From Mobula hypostoma (lineage: Eukaryota): a stretch of DNA of 64,000 nt. The notes under the pieces are model-generated. The model ran no database searches. It had not been told where the DNA came from and worked only from the letters and a program-made list of their open reading frames with translations. The stretch covers positions 87,484,001-87,548,000 of the forward strand of contig NC_086108.1 of the NCBI RefSeq assembly GCF_963921235.1, given 5' to 3'. This document shows, piece by piece, positions 212-63,625 of this stretch (positions are counted from its first letter, which is position 1; each line of letters opens with the position of its first letter). The position numbers and the translations under genes are program-made.

Positions 212-1811
212 TTCGACAATCAATGTCAGGCATGCATAAAAAGAGCTACCTTTCAATCGGGACAGCGATCGAGATTTAAAAGGCAGAGCTTCACGGCAGT
301 TTCTCTGAGTTGAGGAGCAACCAATCAGGAAGAGGGATTAATTAGAAAGGGCCAGTAGAAATAACTCAAGTGCCAGCAGAGAGGCCATTCTGTTGAGCGT
401 ACCAGTGTTTGGAGTGGCTTTGGCTCATCAGGTTTTGGCAAGGTAAAGTATTTGGTAAGTTTCTCTTCTTCTGTTCTTACTTGCTAGGGCACAGTAGTTT
501 ACTGAGAATTGCTCCTGGGGCAGTGTTTTGTTCTGTGTGTGGGATGTGGAAAGTCTAGGAGACCTCCAGTCACCCAGATTCACATCTGCACCAGGTGTGC
601 TGAGCTGAGAGAATGTATTATGGAGGTGGAGCTGCGACTCGATGACCTTTGACTTATAGTGGAGAATGAGGAGGTGGTAGACAGGAGCAGCCGAGAGGTA
701 GTCCTCCTAGATTGCAGGAGACAGGTAACTGGGTGACAGTCAGGAGAAGGCGGGCAAATGTGCAGCCAGTACAGAGTACACCTGAGTATTCCCCTCAATA
801 ATAAGTATACAACTTTAGATGCTGTTGAGGGGGATGACCAGCCAGAGGGGAGCCACAGTGACTGGGTCTCTGGCACTGAGTCTGGTGCTGTGGCTCAATA
901 CAGCGGAGAGGTGAAGATGACTGCAGTGTTGACAGAAAATTTCATAGAAACAAGATTCTGTGGGTGCCATAGAGGCACCTGGGTAGTATATTGTATACCA
1001 GGTGCCAGTGTCTGATTGTCTCGGATCGGGTCCATGGCATTCCCAAGCAGGAGGGTGAGCAGCCAGAAGTCTTGGTGCATATCGGCACCAGTGACATAAG
1101 TAGACAAGGTGAGGAGGTCCTGAAGAGAGATTTTAGGAAGTTAGGTAGAAAGCTGAGAAACAAAACCTTCAGGGTAGTAATCTCTGGATTTCTGACTGTG
1201 TCAGTGAGGGAAGAAGAAGAAGATGATCTGGCAAATGAATGTTTGGCTGAGGAACTGGAGCAGGGGGCAAGGGTTCAGACTTATGGATCTTTGGGATCTC
1301 ATCTGGGGAAGATACGATCTGTACAAAAGGGACAGGATACACCAGAACCAGGGGTGTTCCAAAATCCATGCAAGCAAGATGGTTAGAGTTGTTCAAGAGG
1401 GTTTAAATTTATTTGGCAGGGGGGATGGGAATCTGAGTGATAGTGCTGAAGATGATGTCGTTGGTTTACAGGGACAATATGTAGTGAGGGAAAAACTGCA
1501 GTCAACAGGATGAGTTGCAAAGTTAACTTTACTATGGAAGACACCAGTAGTCTGCCAGCTGTTGAAGGGTGCAGGGGTAGAAAAGAAAGTGCAGTTACTA
1601 TTACAAAGGAGAAAGTGCTGCTGAAAGATCTAAAGGCGCATAAGTCATCCAGACCAGATGAATTGTACCGTAGGGTTCTGAAAGAAGTGACGGTAGAGAT
1701 TGCAGAGGCATTAGTAATGATCTTTCGAAAATCATTGGTCAGTGTCACGGTTCCAGAGGACTGGAAATTGTAGATGTCGCTCTACTCTTTAAGAAAGGAA
1801 ATTATAGATCA

Positions 1812-1891
1812 CAAGTAAGAGAAAATCTGCAGATGCTTGGATTCCAAGCAACACACAAAATTATAGGGCCGAGACCCTGCAGCGGGACTGC
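1812..1891 (-). mobile_element. Penelope-like terminal fragment, internally deleted
   Basis: aaaatctgcagatgct...gcaacacacaaaa plus a remnant ggccgagaccc...ggactg; imperfect flanking duplication attatagatca/attttagatca inside the CR1. Confidence 0.6.
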
Positions 1892-2186
1892 ATTTTAGAT
1901 CAGTTAGACTAACCTCAGTGGTTGGGAAGATGTTGGAGTCAATTGTTAAGGATGAGGTTAAGGAGTACTTGGTGACACAGGACAAGATAGGACAAAGTCA
2001 ACATGGTTTCCTTCAGGGATAATTTGCCTGACAAACCTATTGATATTCTTTGAGAAGATTACAAATAGGGTAAATAAAGGGGATGGAGTATATAACAGGA
2101 ATTCTGCAGATGCTGGAAATTCAAGCAACACACATCAAAGTTGCTGGTGAACGCAGCAGGCCAGGCAGCATCTATAGGAAGAGGCG

Positions 2187-2224
2187 CAGTCGACGTTTCA
2201 GGCCGAGACCCTTCGTCAGGACTA
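2187..2224 (-). ncRNA. Minimal type I hammerhead ribozyme motif (mirror copy)
   Basis: Minus strand reads UAGUC-CUGACGA-AGGGUCUCGGCCU-GAAAC-GUC^GACUG with an intact core. Confidence 0.75.
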
Positions 2225-2228
2225 ACGT

Positions 2229-2266
2229 TAGTCCTGAGGAAGGGTCTCGGCCTGAAACGTCGACTG
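2229..2266 (+). ncRNA. Minimal type I hammerhead ribozyme motif (PLE type)
   Basis: UAGUC-CUGAGGA-AGG(gucucgg)CCU-GAAAC-GUC^GACUG: conserved core CUGANGA/GAAA/GUC, stem I UAGUC:GACUG, predicted cleavage after 2261. Confidence 0.75.
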
Positions 2267-3539
2267 CGCCTCTTCCTATAGATGCTGCCTGGCCTGCTGC
2301 GTTCACCAGCAACTTTGATGTGTGTTGTTGGGATGGAGTATATTTTGGTTTGCACAAGGCCTTTGATAAGGTAACCTATATGAGGCTGCTTATGAAGTTA
2401 AGAGCCTATGGTATTGCAGGAAAGTTACTAACATGGTTAGAGCCTTGGCTGATTGGTAGGAGACAGCAAGTGGGAATAAAAGGATACTTTTCTGGTTGGC
2501 TGCCAGTTACTAGTGGTGTTCCACAGGGTTCGGTTTTGGGACCACATCTTTTTATGCTGTATGTCAATGATTCAGATGATGGAATAGATGGCTTTGTTGC
2601 CAAGTTTGCAGATAATATGAAGATTTGTTGAGGGGCAGGTAGTGTTGCGGAAACAGGTAGGCTGCAGAAGGACTTAGACAGATTAGGAGAATGGGCAAGA
2701 AAGTGGCAAATAAAATACAATGTTGGGAAATGCATGGTCATGCACTTTGGTAGAAGAAATAAATGTGCAAACTATTTTCTAAACAGGAAAAAAATCCAAA
2801 AATCGAATTTGGATTGTGAGTGCTTGTGCAGAATACCTTAAAGGTTAACTTGCAGGTTGAGTCATTGGTGAGGAAGGCAAATGCAATGCATGTTAGCATT
2901 CATTTCAAGAGGTCTAGAATATAAGAGCAGGGATGTGATGCTGGGGCTTTATAAGGCACTGGTGAAGCCTCACCTTGAGTATTGTGAACAGTTTTGGGCT
3001 CCTCATCTAAGAAAAGATGTACTGGCATTGAGAGGGTTCCGAGGAGTTTCACAAGGATGATTCCAGGATTGAGAGCGTTATATGAGGAACATTTGATGGC
3101 TTTGGGCTTTTTCTCACTGGAATTTAGAAGGATGGGGTGGGGGGCGGGGGGGATCTCCTTGAAACCGTTCGAATGTTGAAAGGCCTAGACAGAGTAGATG
3201 TGGAAAAGGAAGTCTAGGACAAGAGAACACAGCTTCAGGATAGAGAAGCGTCCATTTAAAACAGAGATGCAGAGAAATTTCTTTAGCCAGAGGGTGTGGA
3301 ATTTGTTACCACAGGCAACTGTGGAGGCCAAGTTGTTGGATGTATTTAAAGCAGAGCTTGATGAGTTCTTGATTGGCCATGGCATCAAAGGTTATGGCGA
3401 GAATGCTAGGGAGAGGGGCTGAGGAGGGAAAAAGGATCAGCCATGATTTTATTGTCGAGCAGACTCGATAGGCCAAATGGCCTAAATCTGCTCCTATGCC
3501 TTATGGTAAAAATCAGACAAAATCAAAGAGGATGAATAC

Positions 3540-4314: not shown

Positions 4315-4560
4315 CCTCTCCTGCCCCCTTCTTTCTTCTGTGGCCTTCTGCCTCCTTCAACAATCAACTTCCTGGCTCTTTACTTCATCTCTCCCCCTCC
4401 AAGTTTCAGCTATCGCCTAGTGTTTCTCTCTCCCCTCTCCTCATCTTTCAAATCTACCCCCAAGACCTGCCGAAGGGTTTCGGCCCGAAACGTCAACTGT
4501 ACTGTTTTATATAACACTGCCTGGCTTTCTGAGTCCCTCCAGCATTTTGTGTGTGTTGCT
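4315..4560 (+). mobile_element. Penelope-like 3' end with degenerate hammerhead (4462-4499)
   Basis: Pyrimidine-rich tract, then ctgccgaagggtttcggcccgaaacgtcaactg (core A6 changed to C), then ccagcattttgtgtgtgttgct. Confidence 0.75.
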
Positions 4561-6026: not shown

Positions 6027-6527
6027 GAGGACCATGTCCAAGACCGGAAGAAGCTGCAGAAGATCGTGAACACGGCGCAGCACATCACACAAACCAATCT
6101 TCCATCCTTGGACTCACTTTACACCGCACGCTGTCGGAGCAGTGCTAATCAAGGACACAATCCACTCAGCCAACACACTTTTCGTCCCTCTTCCCTCTGG
6201 GAGAAGGCTCAGGAGCTTGAAGAATCATACGGCCAGATTTGGGACCAGCTTCTTTCCAACTGTGATAAGACTGCTGAACGGATCCTGACCCGGATCTGGG
6301 CCGTACCCTCCAAATATCCGGACCTGCCTCCCGGTTTTTTTTTGCACTACTGTAGCGGTGTGCTACACACAGCGCTAGAATAACGACATGTAGTCGGTGA
6401 TTTGGAGTTGCGATAAAAGAGATTTATTCAAACTTTGCGGCCTCCTTTAAAGCCTTCCCGTTCCCGCCCTCCCTAGGTGGGACTGCTGTGGGGAATGCAT
6501 ATTCGCAGACCCTTTCCACGCGCAGGA

Positions 6528-9500
6528 TTATCCCCCTGCTGGTGAAGATGGCCTGGCCTTTTTGGGGCCGGCCTCTGTGCCGGCGCGCACCGTTTCGTGA
6601 GCCAGGAAGTGGGTCGCCACATAACCGCCCACCCCAGAACCGGCGATACGTCCCCCAATGTCCACAGTCTGGATCGGCCTCTGTTTGGGAGGTCTGCCCC
6701 TGCGCCGCCGTGCCTGAGCCTGGACCGGTTGCGCCAAGTCCACATGGGCCGGTTTGAGTCGGTCCACCATGAAAACCTCCTCTCTCCCCCCAATGTCCAG
6801 CACGAACGTGGACCCGTTGTTCCTGATCACCTTAAACGGCCCCCCGTAGGGCCGCTGTAGCGGTGCCCGGTGTCCGCCCCATCTTACAAAAAGAAACTTA
6901 CAGTTCTGCAGGTCTTTGGGTACGCAGGTCGGGCTCTGTCTGTGCTGTGAAGTGGGTATGGGGGCCAGGTTACCGAGCCTCTCCCGTAGTCTGTCCAGGA
7001 CTGCTGCGGGTTCTTCCTCTTGCCCCCTTGGGGCCGGTATGAACTCTCCTGGGACGACCAGGGGCGCGCCGTACACCAACTCGGCCGACAAGGTGTGCAG
7101 ATCCTCCTTGGGCGCCATGCGGATTCCGAGCAGGACCCAGGGAAGTTCGTCCACCCAGTTAGGCCCCTCCAGGCGGGCCATGAGAGCCGATTTCAGGTGA
7201 TGGTGGAAGCACTCCACTAGTCCGTTCGACTGTGGGTGGTAGGCAGTTTTGTGGTGTAGCTGAGATCCTAAAAGGCTGGCCATAGCCGACCACAGGCTGG
7301 AGGTGAACTGGGCGCCCCTGTCGGAGGTAATGTGGGCCGGTACCCCAAAGCGTGCTACCCAGGTTGCTATCGGTGCTCAGGCACAGGATTCGGAGGTAGT
7401 GTCAGTGAGCGGGACTGCCTCTGGCCATCTGGTGAACCGGTCTATCATCGTTAGGAGGTACCGTGCTCCTCGCGACACTGGCAGGGGTCCCACGATATCC
7501 ACATGAATGTGGTCGAACCTCCGGCGGGTGGGTTCGAACTGCTGCGTCGGAGCCTTGGTGTGCCGCTGCACCTTGGCCGTTTGGCACTGCATGCACGTTT
7601 TGGCCCATTCACTGGCCTGTTTACGAAGTCCATGCCACACGAACCTGTTGGAGACCAACCAGATGGTTGTTCTGATGGAGGGGTGCGCTAAGTTGTGAAT
7701 GGACTCGAAAAATCGCCGCCGCCAGGCTGCTGGGACGACGGGGCGGGGTTGGCCGGTAGCTACGTCACACAGTAGGGTCCTCTCACCTGGGCCTACGGGG
7801 AGGTCTTGAAGCTGTAAACCGGAGACTGCAGTCCTGTAACTGGGGATCTCAGTGTCTGCCTGCTGTGCCTCTGCCAGCGCTGCATAGCCCACCCCCTGGG
7901 ACAGGGCCTGTATGGTAGGTCTGGATAGTGCGTCTGCCACGACGTTGTTCTTTCCAGAGACATGCCGGATGTCCGTCGTGTACTCGGAGATGTAGGACAG
8001 ATGTCGCTGCTGGCGGGACGACCAGGGGTCGGACACCTTAGTGAACGCAAAGGTAAGCGGTTTGTGGTCTGTGAACGCGGTGAAGGGCCTACCTTCTAAG
8101 AAGTACCTGAAATGCCGGATTGCCAGGTATAGTGCCAATATCTCCCAGTCGAAAGCACTGTATTTGAGTTCGGGTGGTCGTATGTGTTTGCTGAAGAACG
8201 CCAGGGGTTGCCAGCGACCCTCGATGAGTTGTTCCAGCACTCCACCGACTGCTGTGTTGGATGCGTCCACCATGAGGGCAGTAGGAACGTCCGTTCTGGG
8301 GTGCACTAGCATCGCGGCGTTTGCCAAGGCTTCTTTGGTTTTAACGAAAGCGGCTGCGGCCTCTTCGTCCCAGGTAATGTCCTTGCCCTTACCCGACATC
8401 AGGGTGAACAGGGGGTGCATGATTCGGGCTGCTGAGAGGAGGAAACGGTGGTAGAAATTCACCATACCCACGAATTCCTGCAGGCCTTTGATTGTGTTGG
8501 GTCGGGGGAAGTGACGGACCGCGTCTACCTTGGCGGGCAGAGGGGTTGCCCGGTCTTTAGTAATCCTGTGGCCCAGGAAGTTGATGGTGTCAAGTCTGAA
8601 CTGGCATTTGGCTGGGTTGATTGTAAGGCCGAATTCGCTCAGTCGGGAGTAGAGTTGATGGAGGTGGGACAGATGCTCCTGACGACTACTGCTGGCTGTG
8701 AGGATGTTGTCAAAATAGATGAATGCAAAGTCCAGGTCGCGTCCCACCATGTCCATTAGCCACTGGAACGTCTGTGCGGCATTCTTTACGCCGAATGGCA
8801 TTCGGAGGAATTCGAAAAGGCCGAACGGGGTGATAAGTGCTGTTTTGGGGATGTTGTCCGGATGTACCGGGATTTGATGGTATCCCCGGACAAGGCCTAC
8901 CTTGGAAAAGATCCTTGCGCCGTGTAGGTTTGCTGTGAAGTCTCAAGACTGTGCGGCACAGGGTAGCGGTCTGGCGTTGTAGCCATGTTCAGTCTGCGGT
9001 AGTCGCCGCATTGTCTCTAGCCCCCCATTGCCTTGGGCACCATGTGCAGGGGGGAGGCCCATGGGCTGTCGGACCATCGTATGATCCCCAATTCCTCCAT
9101 CTTCTTGAACTCCTCCTTCGCCAGTCGGAGCTTGTCCGGGGGAAGCCTTCGAGCATGGGCGTGGAGGGGTGGTCCCTGGGTCGGGATGTGGTGCTGTACT
9201 CCGTGTCTGGGCATGGCTGCCGTGAACTGCGGTGTCAGAACTGATGGGAAATCCGCCAGGACCCTGGTGAATTCGTCGTTGGACAGCGTGATGGAGTCCA
9301 GATGTGGGGCTGGCAACTTGCTTCACCCAGGCAGAACGTTTGAAAAGTCTTGGCGTGGACTAGTCGCTTCCCTTGCAGGTCGACCAGCAGGCTGTGGGCT
9401 CGCAGAAAATCCGTCCCCAGGAGTGGTTGGACCACGGCGGCCAGTGTGAAGTCCCACGTGAACTGGCTGGAGCAGAACTGTAGCTGCACCGTGCAGTGCC

Positions 9501-10356
9501 GTAGGTTCGTATTGTGCTGCCATTTGCGGCCCTCAGGGTGGGTCCCGATTCTCTGTTGCGGGTGTCGTAACTCGTTGGAGGTAAAACGCTGATCTCCGCT
9601 CCGGTGTCCACCAAAAAGCGGCGTCTCGACTGCTTGTCCCAGAAATACAGGAGGCTGTCACGATGGCCAGCCGCCGTAGCCATCAGCGGCGGCTGGGCCT
9701 TGGCATTTCCCAAGAATTTGCAGGGTGGTCTACAGCAGCGGGCCTCTGTGCCCCACTGCTGGTGGTAGAAGCACCATTGTTCGTTGGGCTCTGCTGCCGG
9801 GCCTGGTCTGGTCTGTCGTTGGGCACACGGTTTGGTGATCTGTGTGACGGACGCCCCTCTCCTTCTTGGCATTCCACAGCACATCCACCTGGGCCGCCAC
9901 CTCCCGGGGGTCACTGAAATCTGTGTCGGATAGCAGCAGGCATATGTCCTCGGGTAGTTGCTCTAGGAACGCCTGCTCAAACATGAGGCAGAGTTTGTGT
10001 CCTTCAGCCAGGGCCAGCATTTCGTTCATCAATGCCGAAGGCGGCCTGTCTCCCAAACCATCCAGGTGCAGTAAGCGGGCAGCTCGCTCGCGCCGTGGGA
10101 GTCCAAAAGTCCTTATGAGCAGGGCTTTGAATGCTGTGTATTTGCCGTCCTCCGGGGGCGACTGTATTAACTCCTCAACTTATGCAGCTGTCTCCTAGTC
10201 GAGGGAGCTCACCACGTAGTAGTAATGAGTGGAATCCGAGGTAATCTGCCGAATGTGGAATTGTGCTTCTGCTTGTTCGAACCACAAGTGGGATTGCAGC
10301 GTCCAGAAGCTTGGCAGTTTTAATGAAACTGCGTGAACAAATGCGGCGTCGGTCAT
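6528..10356 (-). pseudogene. Gypsy gag-pol polyprotein, disrupted
   Basis: gag KLPSFW..WFEQAEAQF; protease FLVDTGAE; RT MPFGVKNAAQTFQ with catalytic YxDD changed to YFDN; RNase H VDAS/TDHKPL/NVVADALSR; integrase HHCC, HVDIVG, NGLVE, GPF. Several stops and frameshifts (first stop at 10195-10197). Confidence 0.93.
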
Positions 10357-10380
10357 CTCTGGTCCAAATATCATTTGGGC

Positions 10381-10394
10381 CGTCGGGGTCACCA
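10381..10394 (-). promoter_or_regulatory. Primer-binding site, tRNA-Trp type
   Basis: TGGTGACCCCGACG 2 nt inside the 5' LTR; matches the first 14 nt of the known tRNA-Trp PBS TGGTGACCCCGACGTGAT. Confidence 0.85.
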
Positions 10395-11159
10395 ATTGTA
10401 GCGGTGTGCTACACACAGCACTCGAATAACCACACGTAGTCGGTGAGTTGGAGTTGCGATAAAAGAGATTTATTCAAACTTTGCAGCCTCCTTTAAAGCC
10501 TTCCCGTTCCCGCCCTCCCTAGGTGGGACTGCTGTGGGGAATGCATATTCCCAGACCCTTTCCACGCATGGGATTTTCCCCCGCTGGTGAAGACGGCCTG
10601 GCGCCCTTTTTGGGGCCGGCCTCTCCGCCGGCGCACGCCAGTTCATGAGCCGGTTCGAGTGTGCTAGAAAGTGGGTCGCCACACTACCTTACTTTCCATT
10701 TTTCTATTTTCTATTTACAAACTATAATTTAAATTTTTAATATTTACTATTTAATATTTAATTTTTGTAATTCAGGGAGCGGGAAGCGCAGAATCAAATA
10801 TCGCTGTGATGATTGTACGTGTTAGTATCAATTGTTTGGCGACAATAAAGTGTAAAGTATGTGGTTACGGGCAGAACATAGAAAGTTCTTACAGACAGCA
10901 GAACAGTCTCTGGCACTGTAAACCAACTGCTCTGCTGCCACTCATCCTCAAATGGATTCTGTTTGTCTGGAAGGCCAACTTGGCACGGTCTGTGTCCGAC
11001 ATGAATGCACACTGAGCAAGCTCCCTGAAGGTTCTCACGCATCCCTGCCATCCATACCATGGATGTTCTTGCACATCCTGGGTCTTGAGATTCACAACAG
11101 AAACAGTACCCGTCTCCTTTTCCCCTCACAAGCAGGAACTTCCCAAACTCAAGGTCAGT

Positions 11160-17732: not shown

Positions 17733-19400
17733 TCAACTTCAACCTTTGTACATGACATTCATTGACCTCACCAAAGCCTTTGACTTGGTATCAAGGGAAC
17801 TCCTATGGGATGTCCTGTCCACCTATGGCTGCCCTGAAAAGTACAAACATTTGTACATTCGAATCCTGAGACTCCTCCACGATGGCATGCTTGCCACAGT
17901 CATGGTCAGCAGCAGTAACCGTGTGTCTTTTCAAGTTAGATCAGGACAAAACAGGGAATGCTGATTGCCCCAACTTTGTTCACCATCTTCATTGCGACAA
18001 TCATCCACATTATCAAGGATGATCTACCCCCGGGAATCGAAATTGTCTACAGAACAGATGGCAGACTTTTCAATCCTGCCCATCTCAGATCCAAAACAAA
18101 GACATCCACTAGTTCCCTCATCGAGTTCCAATAAGCAGATGACAACAGTGTTGCAGCTCTTTCAGAAAACCACCTACAACAGATTCTGAACACAAAATAA
18201 TCTGCAGATGCTGGGATCAAAGCAACACTTACAGTACGCTGGAGGAACTAAGCAGGCCGGGCAGCATCAGTGGAAACGATGAGTTGACGTTTCGGGCCGG
18301 AACCCTTCATCGGGGCTGAAGAATGAAGGAGGGGGAAGGATTTGAAGAATGCTTGTAGGTTCGGTTGAAAGTCCAGTAATTTGAGAGACAAAGGGGTTGG
18401 GGAGGGGAAGCATTGACGTCATAGGCAGGAATTGAAAACAGATTCTGACTGCCTTCCACCGTGCATACACGAAACTTGGACTTACGATCAATTCCAAGAA
18501 GACTCAGGTCGTCTATCAACCATCACCAATTGAGACAAATTGGATAGAACCATCATTTCAACTTGGTGAAACAACCCTGGAAAATGTGGACTACTTTCCA
18601 AATCTTGGAAGTCACCTCTCCTCCAATGTCAACCTTAATGACAAGATCCAACATCGTCTTAAATGTGCTGGAACAGCTTTTGGATGTCTCCGAACAAGAG
18701 TCTTTCATGATTGTGACATCCAAACAGACACCAAAATGTTGGTGTACAAAGCAGTAGTAATCCCAGCGCTCCTGTATGCATCAGAAACCTGGACAACATA
18801 CCGATGACATTTGAAGTCACTTGAAAAGTTCCATCAACGCCGTCTTTGAAACATCTTAAATATCAGCTGGGAAGATAGAAGAACCAACGTCGGTGTGCTA
18901 AATGAAGCAAAAACAACAAGCATTGAAGCCTACATCATCAGGAACCAACTAAGATGGAGCGGTCATGTTGTTTGGATGAAAGACAAACGTCTGCCAAAAC
19001 AAATCTTCTACTCCCAGCTTAAAGAAGGCAAACGTAAAAGAGGCAAACAACAGAAGAGATTCAAAGACATCTTAAAAGCCGACATGAAGAAATGTGACAT
19101 CGACATCAACAATTGGGAAACCAATGCCAAGGACAGGAAACTCTGGCAAGCCATCATCCGAGAAGGAACAGCAACTTTCAAAGCCAACAGATGTGCAGAA
19201 TTAGAGGAAAAGAGAAGAAAATGGAAAGAGAGGCAGCAACAACCAAAGCCCAATCTGCCATCTGGAACTACCTGTCCTGAATGCGGAAGATTTTTCAAAG
19301 CCAAGATTGGACTCCTAAGCCACTTGAGAGTCCATAAATAGATCAACAGAACGAAGGCCATCATCCTCGACCTCGAGGGATAGCCACAATGACGACAACG
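17733..19400 (+). mobile_element. RTE-clade (BovB-like) LINE, 5'-truncated, with 60-bp TSD
   Basis: FIDLTKAFDLVSRELLW, LLYASETWT, QLRWSGHV...RLPKQIFY, C-terminal C2H2 finger CPECGRFFKAKIGLLSHLRVH; (GAC)-like tail; direct repeats 17673-17732 / 19401-19460. Confidence 0.92.
18190..18436 (-). mobile_element. Penelope-like 3' end inserted in the RTE; hammerhead remnant 18281-18318
   Basis: 12-bp TSD aacagattctga (18178-18189 / 18437-18448); minus strand ccgatgaagggttccggcccgaaacgtcaact (core U4 changed to C). Confidence 0.82.
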
Positions 19401-19686: not shown

Positions 19687-22600
19687 AGAATCATAGAAAA
19701 GTACAGCACAGAAACAGGTCGTTTGCCCAACCCTTTCAAATGCCTACTACCATTGACCTGTACTGGGAACATAGCCCTCCATACCACTGCTATCCATGTA
19801 CTTATCCAAACTCCTTTTAAATGTTGAAATTGAGCTCGCATGCACCAATTGCACTGGCAGCTCATTCCACACTTTCACAAAGCTTTGAATGAAGAAGGTT
19901 CCCTTCATATTGCCCTTAAACCTTTCACATTTCACCCTTAACCCATGATCTCCAGTTATAGTCTCACCCAACCACAGTGGAAAAAGCCTGATTGTATTTA
20001 CCCTATCTATGCCCCTCATAATTTTGTATACCTCTATCAAATCTCCTCTCAATCTTCTATATTCCAAGGAATAAAGTCCTAACCTATTCAAACTTTGCTT
20101 ATAACTCCGGTCCACCAGTTCCAACAACATACGTGTAAATTTTCTCTGAACTCTGTCAACCTTATTTATATCTTTCCTGTAGGTAAGTGACTAAAATTAC
20201 ATACAATACTCTAAATTAAGCCTCACCAACATCTTACTCAACTTCAACAGAATATTCCGTCTCCTGTACTCAATACTTTAATTTATGAAGGCTAATGTGG
20301 CCAAAGCCTTTCTTTACAAACCTACCTACCTGTGACACCACTTTCAATGAATTCCCAGATACCTTTGTTCTACAGCACTTCTCAGTGCCCTACTGTTCAT
20401 GGTGTAACAACCCAATCTTGGTGTCATCTGCAAATTTGCTGATCTAGTTAACTTCATTATCATCTGGACCACTGACAAAGGTGACAAACAACAATGGTCC
20501 TGCAGCATTCCACTACTCCCAGGCCCCCAGTCAGAGAAGCAACTATCTACTGTCACCCTCTGGCTACTCCCACAAAGCCCATGTCTAACCAAATTTACTA
20601 CCTCATCTTGACCGCCTGGTGACTGAACCTTCTTGACCAACTTCCCATGCAAGACTTTGTCAAATGCTTTGCAGAAGTTCATGTAGAGAACATCCACTGC
20701 CTTGCTTTCCTTGTAACTTCCTTGAAAATCTCAAGAAGTTGATTAGACATGACCTACCATGCCTAAAGCCTTGCTGACTATCTCGAATCAGTCTGTGTCT
20801 ATCCAAATACTCGTACATCTGGTCCCTTAGAATACCTTCCAATGACTTTCCAACCACTCACATCAGGTTCAACAGCCTATAATTTCCTGGTTTATTTTTA
20901 GGAGCCTTTCTTAAACAGTGCAACAACATTACCTATCCTCCAGTCCCCTGCTGCCGCACCTGTCACTAAGGATGATTTAATTATCTCTGCTAGGGACCCT
21001 GCAATTTCTGCACTTGCCTACCACAGGGTCTGAGGGAACACCTTGTTAGGCCCTGGAGTTTTATCCACCCTAATTAGCCTCAAGACAGCAAACACCTTCT
21101 CTTCTGTAATCTGAATAGGGTCCATGAAGTCAATGCTGTTTGCCTCACTTCTACATACTCTGTGTCTGTCTCCTGAGTAAATACAGGTGCAAAAAAAGCC
21201 ATTTTATATCTCCCCCATTCATTTGGCTCTAGGCGTGAATTACCATTCTGATATTCCAGAGGACCAATTTTGTCTCTTTTGCTCTTAGCATGTCTGTAGA
21301 ATCCCTGAGGATTCTTCTTCACCCTGTCTGCTAGAGCAATCTCATGCCTTCCTTTAGCCTTCCTGACTTATTTCTTAAGTGTTCTCTTGCATTTCCTATA
21401 CTCCATCAGTACCTCATTTGATCCTATACCTGCTATGCATCTCCTTTTTTTTTTAACATAACCAGGTCCTCAATTTCTCTTGAAAACCAAAGTTCCCAAC
21501 ATCTGTTATCTTTACCTTTTATTCTGACAGGCACATACAAGATTTGTACTCTCAAAATTTCACTTTTGAAGGCATCCCACTTTGCCAGTACACCTTTGTC
21601 AGAAAACACTCTGTTCCAATCCACACCTGCCAGATCTTTTTTGATACCATTAAAATTGGCCTTTCTCCGATTTAGAATCTCAACCTGTGGACCAGACCTA
21701 CCTTTTTCTATATATACTTTGAAACTAATGGCATTATGATGATCACAAAATGCAAAGTACACGAACTTCTGACACCTGCCCTATCTCATTCCCTGGTAGC
21801 AGATCAAGTATTGCATGCTCTCGTTGGGACTTCTACGTACTGATTAAAGATACTTTCCTGAACGCACTTGACAAGTTCTATCCCTTCGAGTTCTCTTACA
21901 GTACGAGAGTCCCAGTCAATATGTTGAAAGTTAAAACCACCTCGTATTATAACACCTTATGTTTCTTGCAAAATCCTGCACACTGTTGGGTCTGTAATAT
22001 AGCTCCATTCACACGGTCACACCTTTCTTATCCCTGCTTCATTAGATGAGTTCTCCAATCTCCTGATCAAGTGCTGCGTGACATTTTCCCTGACTAGTAA
22101 CACCACCCCTCTTTTATTCCCTCCCGCTCAGTCACGTCTAAAACAATCGAACCCAGGAATATTGAGCTGCCAGTCCTGCCTCTCCAAATCTCATTAATGG
22201 CTGCATTATTATCATAATTCAATGTGCTCTGAGCTCATCTGCCTTTCTTACGATACTTCTTGCATTGAAATATTTGCAGCTCGTGACATTAGTGGCACTA
22301 TGCTCAACCTGTTGATTACTGACTTTGTCTGAAATTTTAATGTGTCTCCACAACCTGACCATTTTCTGTTCTGGCATTCTGGTTCCCACCCCCTGCAACT
22401 CTAGTTTAAACAACCCCCCAGCAGCACTTTCCCGCCAGGATATTAGTCCCGCTCCAACTCAGATGCAAACCGTTCCTTCTGTACAGGTCCCATCTTCCCT
22501 GGAAGAGAGCCCAATGATCTAAAAATCTTACGCATTTCCTCCTACACCAACTCCTTAGCCAGGTGTTAAACTGTATAAATCTTCTTAGCTCTGGCCTCAC

Positions 22601-38396: not shown

Positions 38397-39947
38397 TTTG
38401 GATAATGAAGTTTGTTTTCAAAGCTTGCATAGAGATTTAGGCCAGTTGGAAGAGTGGGCTGAAAGACGGCAGATGGAGTTTAATACTGATAAATGTGAGG
38501 TGCCACACTTTGGTAGGACTAATCAAAATAGGACATACACGGTAAATGGTAGGGCATTGAAGAATGCAGTAGAACAGAGGGATCTAGGAATAATGGTGCA
38601 TAGTTCCCTGAAGGTGGAATCTCATGTGGATAGGGTGGTGAAGAAAGCTTTTGGTATGCTGGCCTTTATAAATCAGAGCAGTGAGTATAGGAACACACAT
38701 CAAAGTTGCTGGTGAACGCAGCAGGTCAGGCAGCATCTCTAGGAAGAGGTACAGTGGACGTTTCAGGCCAAGACCCTTCGTCAGGACTAACTGAAGGAAG
38801 AGTTAGTAAGAGATTTGTAAGTGGGAGGGGGAGGGAGAGATCCAAAATGATAGGAGAAGACAGGAGGGGGAGGGATGGAGCCAAGAGCTGGACAGGTGAT
38901 TGGCAAAAGGAATATGAGAGGATCATGGGACAGGAGGTCCGGGGAGAAAGACAAGGGGTGGGGGACACATTCTTTCTTGCACTCTCCTCTTTCTCCCTCT
39001 GTCCCTCTGACTATACCCCTTGCCCATCCTCTGGTTTCCCCCACCCCTTGTCTTTCTCCCCGGACCTCCTGTCCCATGATCCTCTCATATCCCTTTTGCC
39101 AATCACCTGTCCAGCTCTTGGCTCCAACCCTCCCCCTCCTGTCTTCTCCTATCATTTTGGATCTCCCCCTCCCCCTCCCACTTTCAAATCTCTTACTAAC
39201 TCTTCCTTCAGTTAGTCCTGACGAAGGATCTCGGCCTGAAACGTCCAATGTACCTCTTCCTAGAGATGCTGCCTGGCCTGCTGCGTTCACCAGCAACTTT
39301 GATGTGTGTTGCTTGAATTTCCAGCATCTGCAGTATTCCTGTTGATTGAGTATAGGAGTTGAGATGTAATGCTGAAATTGTACAAGGCATTGGTGAGGTC
39401 AAATTTGGAGTATTGTGTACAGTTTTGGTCACTGAATTATAGGAAAGATGTCAACAAAATAGAGAAAGTACAGAGAAGATTTACTAGAACGTTATCTGGG
39501 TTTCATCACCTAAGTTACAGAGAAAGGTTGAACAAGTTGGGTCTTTATTCTTTGGAACGTAGAAGGTTGAGGGGGGACTTGATAGAGGTATTTAAAATTA
39601 TGAGAGGAATAGATAGAGTTGATGTGGATAGGCTTTTTCCATTGAGAGTGGGGGAGATTCAAACAAAAGGACATGAGTTGAGAGTTAAAGGGCAAAAGTT
39701 TAGGGGTAACATGAGGGGGAACTTCTTTACTCAGAGAGTGGTAGTTGTGGAACGAGCTTCCAGCAGAAGTGGTTGAGGCAGGTTCAATGTTGTCATTTAA
39801 AGTTAAACTGGACAGCTATATGGACAGGAAAGGAATGGAGAGTTATGGGCTAAGTGCAGATCGGTGGGACTAGGTGAGAGTAAGAGTTCGGCACGGACTA
39901 GAAGGGCCGAGATGGCCTGTTTCCGAACTGTAATTGTTATATGGTTA
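38397..39947 (+). mobile_element. 5'-truncated CR1 LINE, split by a PLE fold-back
   Basis: QMEFNTDKCEV, LEYCVQFWS, RRLRGDLIEVFKIMRG; tail gttatatggtta. Confidence 0.9.
38693..39344 (+). mobile_element. Penelope-like fold-back insertion (274-bp inverted arms, 71-bp spacer); hammerhead cores at 39213-39250 (+) and 38752-38789 (-)
   Basis: 38692-38965 versus 39037-39310 are reverse complementary (about 8 mismatches by eye); unpaired tail 39311-39344; TSD tgagtatagga (38682-38692 / 39347-39357). Confidence 0.88.
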
Positions 39948-40889: not shown

Positions 40890-41122
40890 CTGGCTTCCCT
40901 CTTACCCCTTCTCTTCTCCTCACCTCCTACTTTTTCTCCCATGGCCCCCTCTCCTCTCTGATTCTTTCTTTTTCAGCGTTTTACCTTATGGACTGTTTAT
41001 TCCTCTCCATAGATGACACCTGAACTGCTGAGTTCCTCCAGCATTTTGTGTGGGTTGCTCTGGATTTCTAACATCTGCAATGTCTTGTGTTTAATGATTT
41101 CTGTCTTGTGTTTAATGATTTC
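40890..41122 (+). mobile_element. Old Penelope-like 3' end with the hammerhead region deleted
   Basis: Pyrimidine tract joined to gactgtttattcctctccatagatg...ctgctgagttcctccagcattttgtgtg; short tandem duplication at the 3' end. Confidence 0.6.
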
Positions 41123-50200: not shown

Positions 50201-51822
50201 CAGGTTTCCCCCGCCATCCGAAGATAGAGTGTTCTTATGAAACGGTTCGTAAACTGAAATGTTGTAAAGCGAAGAAGCAATTACCATTTATTTATATGGG
50301 GAAATTTTGTGAGCATTCGCAGACCCAAAAATAACCTACCAGATACTGCCAAATAACACATAAAACCTAAAATAACAGTAACATATAGTAAAAGCAGGAA
50401 TGATATGATAATTACACAGCCTATATAAAGTAGAAATACTTTTCCACAATCATTACTGCACTGTTCTCCGTAGCGAAAATCTCACGCAAGCACCGTTGGC
50501 AGAAAATCTCACATGAGCGCTGTTGGCAAAAACACTCTCTCCAGTAACCTTTAAGCTATGAAGCTGCCAAATCATACCAAATAACACAAAAAGACACAGC
50601 CTATATAAAGTAGAAATAATGTATGTACAGTGTAGTATCACTTACCGGAATTAGTTCAGCACCGAGCACACTGATGACGGTGTGTTAGACTGAGTCGTCG
50701 CAGGTTGGGGTGGTGCAGTGGCCCCCACCCTCCATGCCGCCGACCGATACATTGCCGCAAAGCACGCAGGGGTGCAGCGGTAGCTGGGAGGCACACAGCA
50801 CATCTTTAAGAAAAAAGCTGAAATAAACATGCTAATTAATTAGGTGCCGCCCAAACATAATTGCCGGCCCAGATCAGTGCCGATTTCCGATTGCGTCGTC
50901 TCTGATCTGGGCCGACAATTAGGTGTCAGGCGGCACCTAATTAATTAGCATGTTTATTTCAGCTTTTTTCTTAAAGATGTGCTGTGTGCTTCCTGGCTAT
51001 CGCTGCATTCTCCGCGAATCGGTTATCTGTCTGCAGCCTGGGGGTTGGGGTCGTGGGACACTAGGGTGTCATCTCGTTGTCTGTTTCCATTAGAGCAGGC
51101 AACTAATCTTCTCCTATGACTGCTCACCTCGACGTCGAAGGTCGAGGTTCGTTGTCTGCTATGGCTGATGTGGATGACTTGCTTGACTGCTGAGCCTCGC
51201 GCATTTATCTATCATACAGTTCTTTGTAAGGACTCAAACCATCTTGCAAATATCCCCTAAACCTACGTACCCTTTCAAAATTAAAGTCATACTTTATCAT
51301 TGCAGCGAAAATCTCATGCAGTTGCTTCACCTTCAGTTCGTTACTGCATTCGGTTTCGATTGTTATCCTTTCTTCTTCCAATTGCATCAGCTCCTCATCA
51401 ATCAGTTCTTGGTCATGGGATGCCAAAACCTCTTCAACATCATCTTCGTCAGCTTCTACAAGCCAAACTCACTTTGTCCTTACTTCGTTCACCACGATCG
51501 AAACGCTTAATTATGTCTAGTTTTACGCTAAGTGTAACACCCTTACTAGCTCTTTTAGGCTTTTCCGATACCATAGAACTCATCTTGCAAACGGCTGCTC
51601 ACAGGCACGTGTTTAAGCAATGCCGGCGAGAATGCAGTTCCGAATCCGGGGAGAGCAGCTGCTCGGGGCGCGTGCTGCCTTTTATCGCGCGCTGATTTTT
51701 TATCACGCTGATTTTTTTCGTAACAGTGAAAACACCTTCTGAAAGCGAAACAGAGAACTAATGTAGGTCTTTCGTAACAGTGAGGTTTGTAAAGTGAACA
51801 TCCAAAAAGCGGGGGACACCTC
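50201..51822 (-). mobile_element. Non-autonomous Tigger/pogo (Tc1-mariner) element, copy 1
   Basis: TA TSD (50199-50200 / 51823-51824); imperfect TIRs caggtttcccccgc / gcgggggacacctc; transposase N- and C-terminal remnants (SHDQELIDEELMQLEEE...YKELYD) with the DDD domain deleted. Confidence 0.88.
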
Positions 51823-51989: not shown

Positions 51990-53535
51990 AAGACCATACG
52001 ATATAGGAGCAGAATTAGGCCATTTGACTCATTGAATCTGCTCCACCATTTATCACAGCGTATCCAATTTTCTCTCAGCCCCAATCACCTGCCTTCCTCC
52101 CCCGCCACCCCATATCCCTTCATGCCCTAACCAATCAAGAATCTATCAGCCTCTGCCTTAATTGTACATAAAGGCTTGGCCTCCACAGCTGTCTGTTCCA
52201 ATGAATTCCACAGTTTCACCTCTCTCTGGCTAAAGAAATTCCTCCTCATCTCTGTTCTAAAAGGACACCCTTCTATTCTGAGTCTGTGTCCACTGGTCTT
52301 AAGACTCTCCCACCTGTCCACATCCACTCTATCAAGGCCTTTCACCATTCGATGGGTTTCAATGTGGTCACCCCTCATTCTTCTGAATTCTAGTGAATAC
52401 AGGCCTAGAGCCATCAAACACTCTTCACATGACAAGCCAATCAAACCTAGGATCATTTTCGTGAACCTCCTTTGAAACCTCTCCAGCTTCAGCATATCCT
52501 TTCTAAGATAAGGGGCCCAAAACTGCCAACAATACTCCAAGTGAGGCCTCACCAGTGCTTTATAAAGTCTCAACATTACACATTGCTTTTATATTCTAGT
52601 CCTTTTGAAATGCATGCTAGCATCACACTTGCCTTTCTCAAACTGCAAATCCCCCTTTAGGGAACCCTAAACAAGGACTCCCGTGTGCAAATCCCCCTTT
52701 AGGGAATCCTAAACAAGGACTCCCGTGTCCCTTTGCACCTCAGCCTTTCTTTTGTATTTTCTCTCTATTTAGAAAATAGTCAAACCTTTAATTTCTTCTA
52801 CTGAAGAGCATGACCATACATTTCCCAACACTGCATTCCAGCTGCCACTTCTTTGCTCATTGTCCTAATATGTTTAAGTCCTTCTGTAGCCTCTCTACTT
52901 ACTTAAAACTACCTTCCCCTCCACCTATTTTCATATTGCTTGCAACACACACAAAATGCTGGAGGAACTCAGCAGGCCAGGCAGCATCTATGGAAAAGAG
53001 TGATTGTACTCTTCCTCACAGATGCTGCCTGGCCTGCTGAGTTTCCAGCATCTGCAGATTATCTCGTTTGTGTTCGTAGCGTTCACAAACTAAGCAACAA
53101 AGCTATAAATTCCATCATCCAAATCACTGACGTGTAACGCGAAAAGAGTTGGTTCCAACACAGACCCCCGTGGAATGCCACTAGACTGGCAGCAAACCAG
53201 AAAAGGCTCCCTTTATTCCCACTCTCTGCCTCCTGCCAATCAGCCATTGCTTTGTCCATGCTAGAATCTTCCCTGTCATACCATGGGCTTGTAGCTTGTT
53301 AAGTAGCCTCTGGTGTGGCACCTTGTCAAAGGCCTTCTGAAAATCCAAGTACACAACATCAACCGATTCTCATCTGTCTATGCTACTTGTTACTTCTTCA
53401 AAAAATTCCAACAGATTTGTCAGGCAAGATTTTCCCTTGAGGAAACCATGCTGACTACAGTGTATTTTATCATGTGCCTTCAAGTACCCCGAATCCTCAT
53501 CCATAACAATCAACTCCAACATCTTTCCAACCACT
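51990..53535 (-). mobile_element. 5'-truncated CR1 LINE
   Basis: LYKALVRPHLEYCWQFWAPYL (ORF 52127..52576); contains a 42-bp tandem duplication (52644-52727) and a PLE remnant. Confidence 0.87.
52939..53072 (+). mobile_element. Collapsed Penelope-like fold-back
   Basis: Inverted arms aactcagcaggccaggcagcatct (52966-52989) / agatgctgcctggcctgctgagtt (53020-53043); the central hammerhead-bearing part is absent. Confidence 0.72.
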
Positions 53536-63551: not shown

Positions 63552-63625
63552 AACAAATACTGTAGGTCCTATTTTTACAGATACACATTGGTGCATCTGT
63601 AAAAATAGGACCTACAGTATTTGTT
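63552..63625. repeat. 74-nt near-perfect palindrome (31-bp perfect stem)
   Basis: 63552-63582 is the exact reverse complement of 63595-63625, plus cac/gtg pairing and a 4-nt loop. Confidence 0.95.

What the first reader, a model, noticed from the sequence alone, without database searches (positions are those of the whole stretch)
2094..2329. Zero-spacer 202-bp palindrome carrying an intact minimal hammerhead ribozyme on each strand
Seen: two 101-bp arms meet at actaac|gttagt with one mismatch. That mismatch falls on the free N7 position of the core (CUGACGA versus CUGAGGA), so both strands keep a consensus hammerhead. There is a 14-bp TSD and a 32-nt unpaired tail on one side. Known: Penelope-like elements carry minimal type I hammerheads in their pseudo-LTRs, often insert with an inverted pLTR, and have a short tail extension. 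GAAACGUC leaves no loop for stem III, so the palindromic ACGU would have to pair between two motifs (dimeric hammerhead). Inference: this is an extreme minimal PLE product with no ORF. On either strand the antisense arm is transcribed before the ribozyme, so the ribozyme should be locked in dsRNA. It could be a one-off truncation product or a member of a non-autonomous hairpin-ribozyme retroelement family.
Basis: partly seen in the sequence, partly recalled or inferred. Interest (0 to 1): 0.72.

Follow-up and report, generated by a model that had tools for sequence, protein, structure and literature searches.

The report
Penelope stump palindrome, locked hammerheads
This 236-base mirror-image DNA is real, but it is most likely an ordinary, very short insertion of a very abundant Penelope-type jumping gene, laid down in a mirror-plus-tail pattern already described for this group, and the self-cutting RNA motif on each strand is predicted to be locked shut here.

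Summary
Observation confirmed: 101-bp arms (2126-2226/2227-2327) with one mismatch at hammerhead N7, a 32-nt tail and an exact 14-bp target-site duplication (TSD), inside a dead LINE. The repeat is very abundant (132,615 contigs in one run). Its two 3' ends lie about 27 nt apart, the Penelope tail signature. The window holds two more inverted pairs with other centres (65- and 6-nt spacers), so the centre is a variable truncation point. This centre does recur in other DNA, but in roughly 0.05-0.1% of arms, which independent truncation could give; nothing shows an amplified hairpin family. The layout (inverted pLTR, tail, TSD, palindromic junction, opposite-strand minimal hammerheads) is published. 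The ribozyme fold costs 65.5 kcal/mol inside the hairpin, and helix II closes G•U instead of G-C. No link to a GIY-YIG/RT ORF could be made (no genome held). One small lead: the centre falls on the only 7-bp hairpin of the longer copy, just before helix I. The scan has noted such palindromes before, in this genome and others. Verdict: ordinary; interest 0.2.

The parts
2080..2093 (+). left copy of the 14-bp target-site duplication
   Evidence: exact match to 2330-2343, only two copies in the window
2094..2125 (-). 32-nt unpaired tail, the 3' extension of the sense arm
   Evidence: the same tail ends the long arm of copy 2 at 39312-39344; family loose ends at 39312-39314 and 39340
2126..2226 (-). 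tail-bearing arm (3' end of the pLTR), cut at its 5' side 7 nt before the hammerhead core
2188..2223 (-). minimal type I hammerhead motif, core CUGACGA; predicted cut after C2192 (- strand)
   Evidence: mirror of the + motif
2227..2329 (+). inverted tail-less arm (101 bp paired plus 2 nt)
2230..2265 (+). minimal type I hammerhead motif, core CUGAGGA, extra A, G•U-closed helix II, no helix III; predicted cut after C2261
   Evidence: features compared with PMC4209133
2330..2343 (+). right copy of the TSD
1900..2560 (+). host: decayed LINE reverse-transcriptase region (CR1-like; label recalled) interrupted by the insertion
   Evidence: RVT_1, E 5.5e-10, in the right flank; both flanks map end to end on paralogues near 43.8-44.2 kb and 53.1-53.5 kb
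38693..39344 (+). copy 2 of the same repeat: 280-nt arms, 65-nt spacer, same short end and same tail, 13-bp TSD with one mismatch (38680-38692/39345-39357)
   Evidence: a paralogue at 20262-20274 holds the 13 bp once
39195..39216 (+). 7-bp inverted repeat with 8-nt loop in copy 2, spanning the position equivalent to the centre of the palindrome (39211); also a pyrimidine run ending in CAG at 39209-39211
   Evidence: the only stem of 7 bp or more with a 3-15-nt loop in 38969-39344
52942..53068 (.). copy 3, related subfamily: inverted pair with 6-nt spacer, cut 3' of the hammerhead; right end approximate, TSD not established

Best explanation
The palindrome is two head-to-head stubs of one abundant repeat end, with a one-sided tail and a 14-bp TSD, and is likely a severely 5'-truncated Penelope-like insertion whose mirror arm was probably made during this one insertion rather than copied from a hairpin parent. 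Likely mechanism (inferred from in vitro work on the anole PLE, PMC11167929): the element's GIY-YIG nuclease nicks both strands 14 nt apart. Each nick primes reverse transcription of sense pLTR RNA, one at the tail start site and one about 30 nt upstream. Both cDNAs stop early, here at the same base 7 nt before the hammerhead core, and repair joins their 3' ends. That gives a head-to-head pair, a tail on one side only and a TSD. Shown: the anatomy, the two family 3' ends, variable centres and high abundance. Inferred: PLE identity, two-strand priming and end joining. Predicted: the hammerheads are passengers that cannot fold in a read-through RNA from either strand, and each strand carries only one motif, so no dimer forms in cis.
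For: Anatomy. Same short end and tail but other centres at 38693-39344 and 52942-53068. Over the shared 101 nt, the arms of this locus differ by 1, those of copy 2 by 5, and arms across loci by 6-8; each pair shares its own subfamily letters. Family 3' ends with long unlike flanks pile up at 39312-39314 and at 39340 in runs X1 and X5. The short end lies at the foot of a 6-bp stem-loop, 39292-39313, as the anole start site lies in a stem-loop. Abundance: 132,615, 121,003, 14,354 and 5,723 contigs laid in 4 of 4 runs. Published layout: inverted pLTR, 31-bp tail, 8-10-bp TSD, solo pLTRs, palindromes at the inverted junction (PMC3846280); inverted truncated copy plus 30-40-bp tail (PMC8557442); opposite-strand min-HHR pairs 100-700 bp apart (PMC4209133). 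Both strands are extended, two start sites define the tail, and the hammerhead is not needed for insertion (PMC11167929). Lock: -220.7 kcal/mol free versus -155.2 with the hammerhead enforced.
Against: No link to a GIY-YIG/RT ORF: 0 of 135 window ORFs of 90 aa or more hit a GIY-YIG family, and protein searches gave only 3 Mobula gene models that contain the repeat. The same centre recurs: in X1 one contig at depth 245.7 ends 15 nt past it, 7 more listed contigs cross it with variants and 3 show right-arm deletions; X5 has one crossing contig. A small lineage is therefore not excluded. Two cDNAs stopping at the same base needs chance or a preferred stop. The joining step has not been shown in any PLE work I read. 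Arkhipova et al. 2013 favour self-priming on an antisense template. Copy 2's arms differ from each other (5 of 101) almost as much as from this locus (6-8), so the within-pair argument rests mainly on shared diagnostic letters.
Confidence: 0.75

Rival explanations
1. Add-on to the best reading: the centre is a preferred stop point, not a random one. Copying would end just before helix I because of the 7-bp RNA hairpin there, or because a splice acceptor or the RNA's 5' end lies there, so near-zero-spacer palindromes of this size arise again and again.
For: The centre-equivalent base 39211 lies in the 3' arm of the only 7-bp stem in 376 nt of copy 2 and is the G of a pyrimidine-run-CAG. In Drosophila virilis Penelope the intron's 3' end maps to the 5' end of helix I (PMC4209133). 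Gene model P0001 begins matching the repeat at this codon. Variants with 3 or 4 gaps at this centre exist in X1.
Against: Only this one centre was probed, so there is no background for other positions. Its estimated share, 0.1-0.2% of two-arm insertions, is below the 0.29% that an even spread over 340 positions gives for all spacer types (rough). A fold-back at this hairpin would keep the loop, not remove it. Position 39199 in the stem is A in only about 41% of depth in X1 and mostly T in X9, and this locus's parent letters there are unknown. P0002 matches two residues further upstream and does not fit that acceptor.
Confidence: 0.4
2. One reading: a non-autonomous hairpin retroelement that is transcribed and re-inserted whole by the PLE protein, so that one centre is inherited.
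For: The exact centre recurs in two species' runs (X1 record 8, depth 245.7 against 12-23 for most single contigs; X5 record 16). pLTR sequence alone can mobilise in trans (PMC3846280), and non-autonomous PLE derivatives exist (PMC8557442; bioRxiv 10.64898/2026.07.22.740005).
Against: Rough count 4-9 loci with a perfect centre plus about ten variants, against about 10,000 or more arms. Arms behind the same centre carry different letters and deletions. Other centres occur in the same window. The template would be a 101-bp duplex. Described animal retrozymes are tandem, not inverted.
Confidence: 0.08
3. Same element, other route to the mirror arm: self-priming or template switching on one nascent strand, as proposed for rotifer PLEs.
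For: Arkhipova et al. 2013 read palindromic inverted junctions as self-priming on an antisense template. The antisense strand can form the 7-bp hairpin at this place (-3.7 kcal/mol, DNA parameters).
Against: Fold-back leaves a loop, and none is present. It does not explain why the mirror arm ends at the second start site, 30 nt short of the tail, in both this locus and copy 2.
Confidence: 0.15
4. The insertion was first longer or had a spacer, and the centre collapsed later through cruciform cutting and repair, with the arms made alike by conversion.
For: Long palindromes are unstable (recalled, not tested). Right-arm deletions exist at other loci with this centre.
Against: Only 1 mismatch in 101 bp and a perfect TSD suggest little time. 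Copy 2, with longer arms and more decay, kept its spacer.
Confidence: 0.08

Closest known systems
Inverted-pLTR insertions of endonuclease-bearing Penelope-like elements (Pen2a_Av and others, PMC3846280; scheme in PMC8557442; D. virilis Penelope, PMC2377424)
   Same: Head-to-head inverted end, tail of about 30 nt on one arm only, TSD, palindromic junction, inverted repeats of varying length, solo pLTRs.
   Different: No ORF sequence at all; 236 bp; zero spacer; 14-bp TSD against 8-10 bp in the rotifer examples; parent ORF not identified.
Minimal type I hammerheads (min-HHR) of metazoan PLE pLTRs (PMC4209133)
   Same: CUGANGA and GAAA boxes, UC cut site, 4-5-bp helix I, extra base between 9 and 10.1, palindromic 15.2-16.2, no helix III; pairs on opposite strands 100-700 bp apart already reported.
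   Different: Helix II is short with two G•U pairs and closes G•U instead of G10.1-C11.1; the two motifs are only 7 bp apart.
Poseidon PLE of Anolis carolinensis, PAc (PMC11167929)
   Same: Hammerhead followed about 100 nt later by two 3' ends that define a tail; short end at a stem-loop.
   Different: In PAc the ORF starts within the hammerhead; here the core has no ATG and no long ORF was found. Clade not determined.
Animal non-LTR retrozymes (bioRxiv 10.64898/2026.07.22.740005; PMC7229834, listing only)
   Same: Non-coding, type I hammerhead, PLE-related.
   Different: Retrozymes are head-to-tail tandems with motifs on one strand; this is a head-to-head pair with one motif per strand.

Membership tests
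EN+ Penelope-like element (truncated copy) | Parent ORF with telomerase-like RT and GIY-YIG endonuclease linked to this end | tested here: inconclusive
   None in 135 window ORFs of 90 aa or more; protein searches gave only host gene models; four collection scans empty; no genome held
EN+ Penelope-like element (truncated copy) | Inverted 5'-truncated copy head to head with the sense copy | tested here: met
EN+ Penelope-like element (truncated copy) | 30-40-bp tail on one end only; two alternative 3' ends | tested here: met
   32 nt here; loose ends at 39312-39314 and 39340
EN+ Penelope-like element (truncated copy) | Short TSD | tested here: met
   14 bp here; 13 bp at copy 2, held once in a paralogue
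EN+ Penelope-like element (truncated copy) | Partial tandem (direct) pLTRs | not testable with these tools
   none in the window; needs the genome
min-HHR of metazoan PLEs | Core boxes, UH cut site, helix I, extra base 9/10.1, palindromic 15.2-16.2 | tested here: met
   against PMC4209133
min-HHR of metazoan PLEs | Highly conserved G10.1-C11.1 pair | tested here: not met
   G2242•U2253; C in about 19% of depth in X1 and in the older copies at 4463 and 18317
min-HHR of metazoan PLEs | Self-cleavage as a dimer | not testable with these tools
   bench test; the hairpin fold is favoured by 65.5 kcal/mol
Rfam hammerhead families | Covariance-model match | tested here: not met
   E<=1; single arm, E<=10
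Non-LTR retrozyme | Head-to-tail tandem units with hammerheads on the same strand | tested here: not met
   one motif per strand, inverted; definition read
Proposed hairpin-ribozyme family | One centre at many loci with distinct TSDs and shared descent | tested here: inconclusive
   centre recurs at low copy; contigs too short to show TSDs or descent; other centres in the window

The most novel reading that the evidence does not exclude
This PLE has a fixed stop point just before its hammerhead (hairpin, splice acceptor or RNA 5' end) that repeatedly yields a minimal 236-bp hairpin unit, and some of these units are re-inserted whole: a non-autonomous fold-back retroelement carrying locked ribozymes.
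Probability: 0.08. Interest if true: 0.6.

Novelty: new member of a known kind. Interest (0 to 1): 0.2.

Why it matters
As an object it matters little: the layout is in print and the scan has noted it many times. As data it has some use. How PLEs build their inverted ends is still open (PMC8557442, PMC11167929), and a family with about 10,000 or more young arms gives the statistics to test two-strand priming and a preferred stop before helix I. Two searches found no paper describing this repeat in rays or sharks (0 papers; 1 review, listing only), but Repbase and Dfam could not be searched and may hold it.

Tried and rejected
Whole-genome BLASTN: not possible, no genome held. Rfam: no hammerhead match; mir-3926 and mir-3190 hits lie below their gathering scores and reflect hairpin shape, so they were rejected as microRNA evidence. 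Pattern scans of viral, metagenome and prokaryote genome contigs: 0 matches. Three protein searches with the arm's open frame returned only 3 Mobula gene models that contain the repeat; none has a PLE domain. Pfam on 135 ORFs of 90 aa or more showed LINE- and LTR-type RT remains and no GIY-YIG. ORFs under 90 aa were not scanned, so small PLE fragments could be missed. Expression: no RNA holder listed; run X15, only guessed to be RNA, had 5,723 contigs on the arm and 0 on the centre; neither is used as evidence. No listed contig matched this locus's 48-nt centre letter for letter; a filter drops contigs, so this shows nothing. Most strand-switch joints were not printed (15 of 110 joints shown), so no centre histogram could be made. 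MITE reading rejected: no terminal inverted repeat on the tail side, a 14-bp TSD and variable centres. A perfect branch-point word upstream of the centre in copy 2 was dropped as evidence because its A is not conserved. The N7 mismatch as a sign of selection was rejected (single, post hoc). Lunse et al. (PMC5785218) is not held and is known only through a review. Free co-folding of two single arms did not give a dimeric hammerhead; the ACGU duplex is worth only -3.1 kcal/mol, and ViennaRNA cannot model that fold.

Full report
Observation. The structure is as described. From 2226|2227 the arms pair for 101 bp with one mismatch, 2215/2238, which is N7 of the hammerhead core. 2094-2125 is a 32-nt tail, and a 14-mer flanks the insert exactly at 2080-2093 and 2330-2343 and occurs nowhere else in the window. 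Ten base shuffles of the window gave perfect zero-spacer arms of 7-9 bp at most. The insert interrupts a decayed LINE RT region: RVT_1 hits the right flank at E 5.5e-10, and both flanks map end to end on paralogues near 43.8-44.2 kb and 53.1-53.5 kb. Those paralogues hold 8-9 more bases at the site, so they are not exact empty sites. 'CR1-like' is my recalled label.

The ribozyme motif. On each strand there is a 4-bp helix I, the CUGANGA and GAAA boxes, an extra A before helix II, palindromic ACGU and C17 at 2261 (+) or 2192 (-). These are the features of the minimal hammerheads of metazoan PLEs, which showed no cleavage as monomers and low cleavage as dimers (PMC4209133; parts 1-2 of 4 read). 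One conserved feature fails: helix II closes G•U, not G10.1-C11.1. C at that place is about 19% of depth in run X1 and is present in the older copies at 4463 and 18317. Rfam has no matching hammerhead model. In a read-through RNA the full hairpin folds at -220.7 kcal/mol, and at -155.2 with the hammerhead enforced. Each strand carries one motif, so a dimer cannot form in cis. The motifs are predicted to be silent here.

The same repeat in the window. BLASTN of the arm finds a second young insertion at 38693-39344 with 280-nt arms, a 65-nt spacer, the same short end, the same tail and a 13-bp TSD with one mismatch; a paralogue holds those 13 bp once. A third pair at about 52942-53068 has a 6-nt spacer and is cut 3' of the hammerhead. 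Single or decayed arms lie at 1817-1889, 4463-4560, 18201-18317 and 41009-41079. Three inverted pairs thus have three different centres. Over 101 shared bases the arms of this locus differ by 1, those of copy 2 by 5, and arms across loci by 6-8, and each pair shares its own diagnostic letters. This fits a mirror arm made from the same template at each insertion.

The family outside the window. No genome is held. Of 24 runs listed I laid 4. On the long arm of copy 2, 132,615, 121,003, 14,354 and 5,723 contigs were laid. Loose ends with long unlike flanks pile up at 39312-39314 and at 39340 in X1 and X5. That is the two-end signature that Frangieh et al. traced to two reverse-transcription start sites (PMC11167929; parts 1-2 of 4 read). 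The only protein hits were 3 Mobula gene models that contain the repeat, so it is a repeat of rays; I infer no more about the source.

Does the centre recur? On the 48 bases across the centre, X1 gave 41 contigs (8 listed), X5 8, X9 2 and X15 0. One X1 contig runs 2205-2241 with one other letter at depth 245.7. It stops 15 bases past the centre, where a perfect palindrome would end a contig built from 31-mers (inference); the differing letter is not printed and is probably N7. Seven other listed contigs cross with 1-4 other letters or 3-4 gaps at depths 11.9-65, and three loose ends read as deletions in the right arm with different arm letters. X5 has one crossing contig (2212-2250, depth 55.5). 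So the centre is not unique. The tool warns that depth is no copy number, so the following is an order of magnitude only. With single-copy depth 14-28, the perfect centre stands for about 4-9 loci and the arm for at least 9,000-18,000 copies; the centre is 0.05-0.1% of arms or 0.1-0.2% of two-arm insertions, against 0.29% per position for an even spread over 340 positions. I left out contigs that cross by only a few bases; taking the summed depth 5-6 bases past the centre (1,159) as a ceiling gives 0.45% of arms (hand arithmetic). Library fold-back chimeras could add to these counts. The data need no amplified family, and they cannot separate an even spread from a modest hotspot.

What sits at the centre. 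In copy 2 the equivalent base (39211) lies in the 3' arm of a 7-bp inverted repeat with an 8-nt loop, the only stem of that length in 376 nt. It is also the G of a pyrimidine run ending in CAG. In D. virilis Penelope an intron ends at the 5' end of helix I. Gene model P0001 begins matching the repeat at this codon, but P0002 does not fit that acceptor. Against the hairpin idea: fold-back would keep the loop, one stem base is variable in the family, and only this centre was probed. I give a preferred stop here 0.4.

Mechanism. Shown in vitro for the anole element: both target strands are cut and extended, copying starts at two internal sites, and hammerhead mutants still insert. Inferred here: nicks 14 nt apart each prime a cDNA, one from the tail site and one from the short site; both stop 7 nt before the core and are joined. 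This gives the head-to-head order, the one-sided tail and the TSD in one step. The joining is not shown anywhere I read, and Arkhipova et al. prefer self-priming on an antisense template. A search for Penelope with 'twin priming' and 'inverted' gave 2 papers whose titles concern other topics (listing only).

Comparison with what is known. Inverted pLTR, 31-bp tail, 8-10-bp TSD, solo pLTRs and palindromes at inverted junctions: PMC3846280 (passages). Inverted truncated copy and 30-40-bp tail as general PLE traits: PMC8557442 (passages). Inverted repeats of varying size: PMC2377424 (passages). Opposite-strand min-HHR pairs tied to truncated PLEs: PMC4209133. Dimer dependence: review PMC6765202 (passages). 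Retrozymes are tandem (bioRxiv 10.64898/2026.07.22.740005; part 1 of 5 and passages). It works like a truncated EN+ PLE insertion. Membership is likely but unproven, because no RT or GIY-YIG link was found. I opened no supplements; the alignments in those of PMC4209133 and PMC11167929, and Repbase or Dfam entries, may already hold this family. Searches for Penelope with Mobula (0 papers), with elasmobranch terms (none of the 15 listed, of 80, held 'elasmobranch') and with shark and hammerhead ribozyme (1 review) found no description of it.

Earlier notes of this scan. A look-up by sequence found nothing. By words and by place, 16 listed notes describe the same kind of palindrome in this genome and others. 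They are unchecked AI notes and not support. Several suggest that stubs end just before the ribozyme, which raised my odds for a preferred stop from about 0.2 to 0.4.

Verdict. Real, ordinary in kind, a clean miniature of a published insertion pattern. Interest 0.2; new member of a known kind. The boldest reading not excluded, a re-transposing minimal hairpin unit, has probability 0.08.

Noticed in passing
window 1800-1900: An older, decayed arm of a related subfamily lies 200 bp upstream in the same LINE, in two pieces (1817-1857, 1867-1889) with the middle deleted; an 8-mer repeats at 1800-1807 and 1860-1867.
   Followed up: partly
window 2095-2226 (-) and 38971-39342 (+): One frame of the arm stays open through hammerhead and tail, and Mobula gene models (a STARD3NL isoform, a CoA synthase, one uncharacterised protein) include it, so the repeat is exonised or mis-annotated in public gene sets.
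   Followed up: partly
window 39292-39313: A 6-bp stem-loop ends where the family's short 3' end maps, like the stem-loop start site of the anole PLE.
   Followed up: partly
window 50773-51007: An unrelated inverted repeat: 79-nt arms, 95% complementary, 77-nt spacer; similar sequence seems to occur near 59.0-59.3 kb.
   Followed up: no
window 63552-63625: 35-bp near-perfect inverted repeat with a 4-nt spacer.
   Followed up: no
window 6500-10500 (-): A fairly young LTR-type (Gypsy-like; label recalled) element with RT, RNase H and integrase domains, broken by stops.
   Followed up: no
run X1 and X5 contigs on window 39214: Several joints lead into 39214, the first base of helix I (table 5c); their kind was not printed. 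They may mark a homology boundary between subfamilies or a preferred junction.
   Followed up: no
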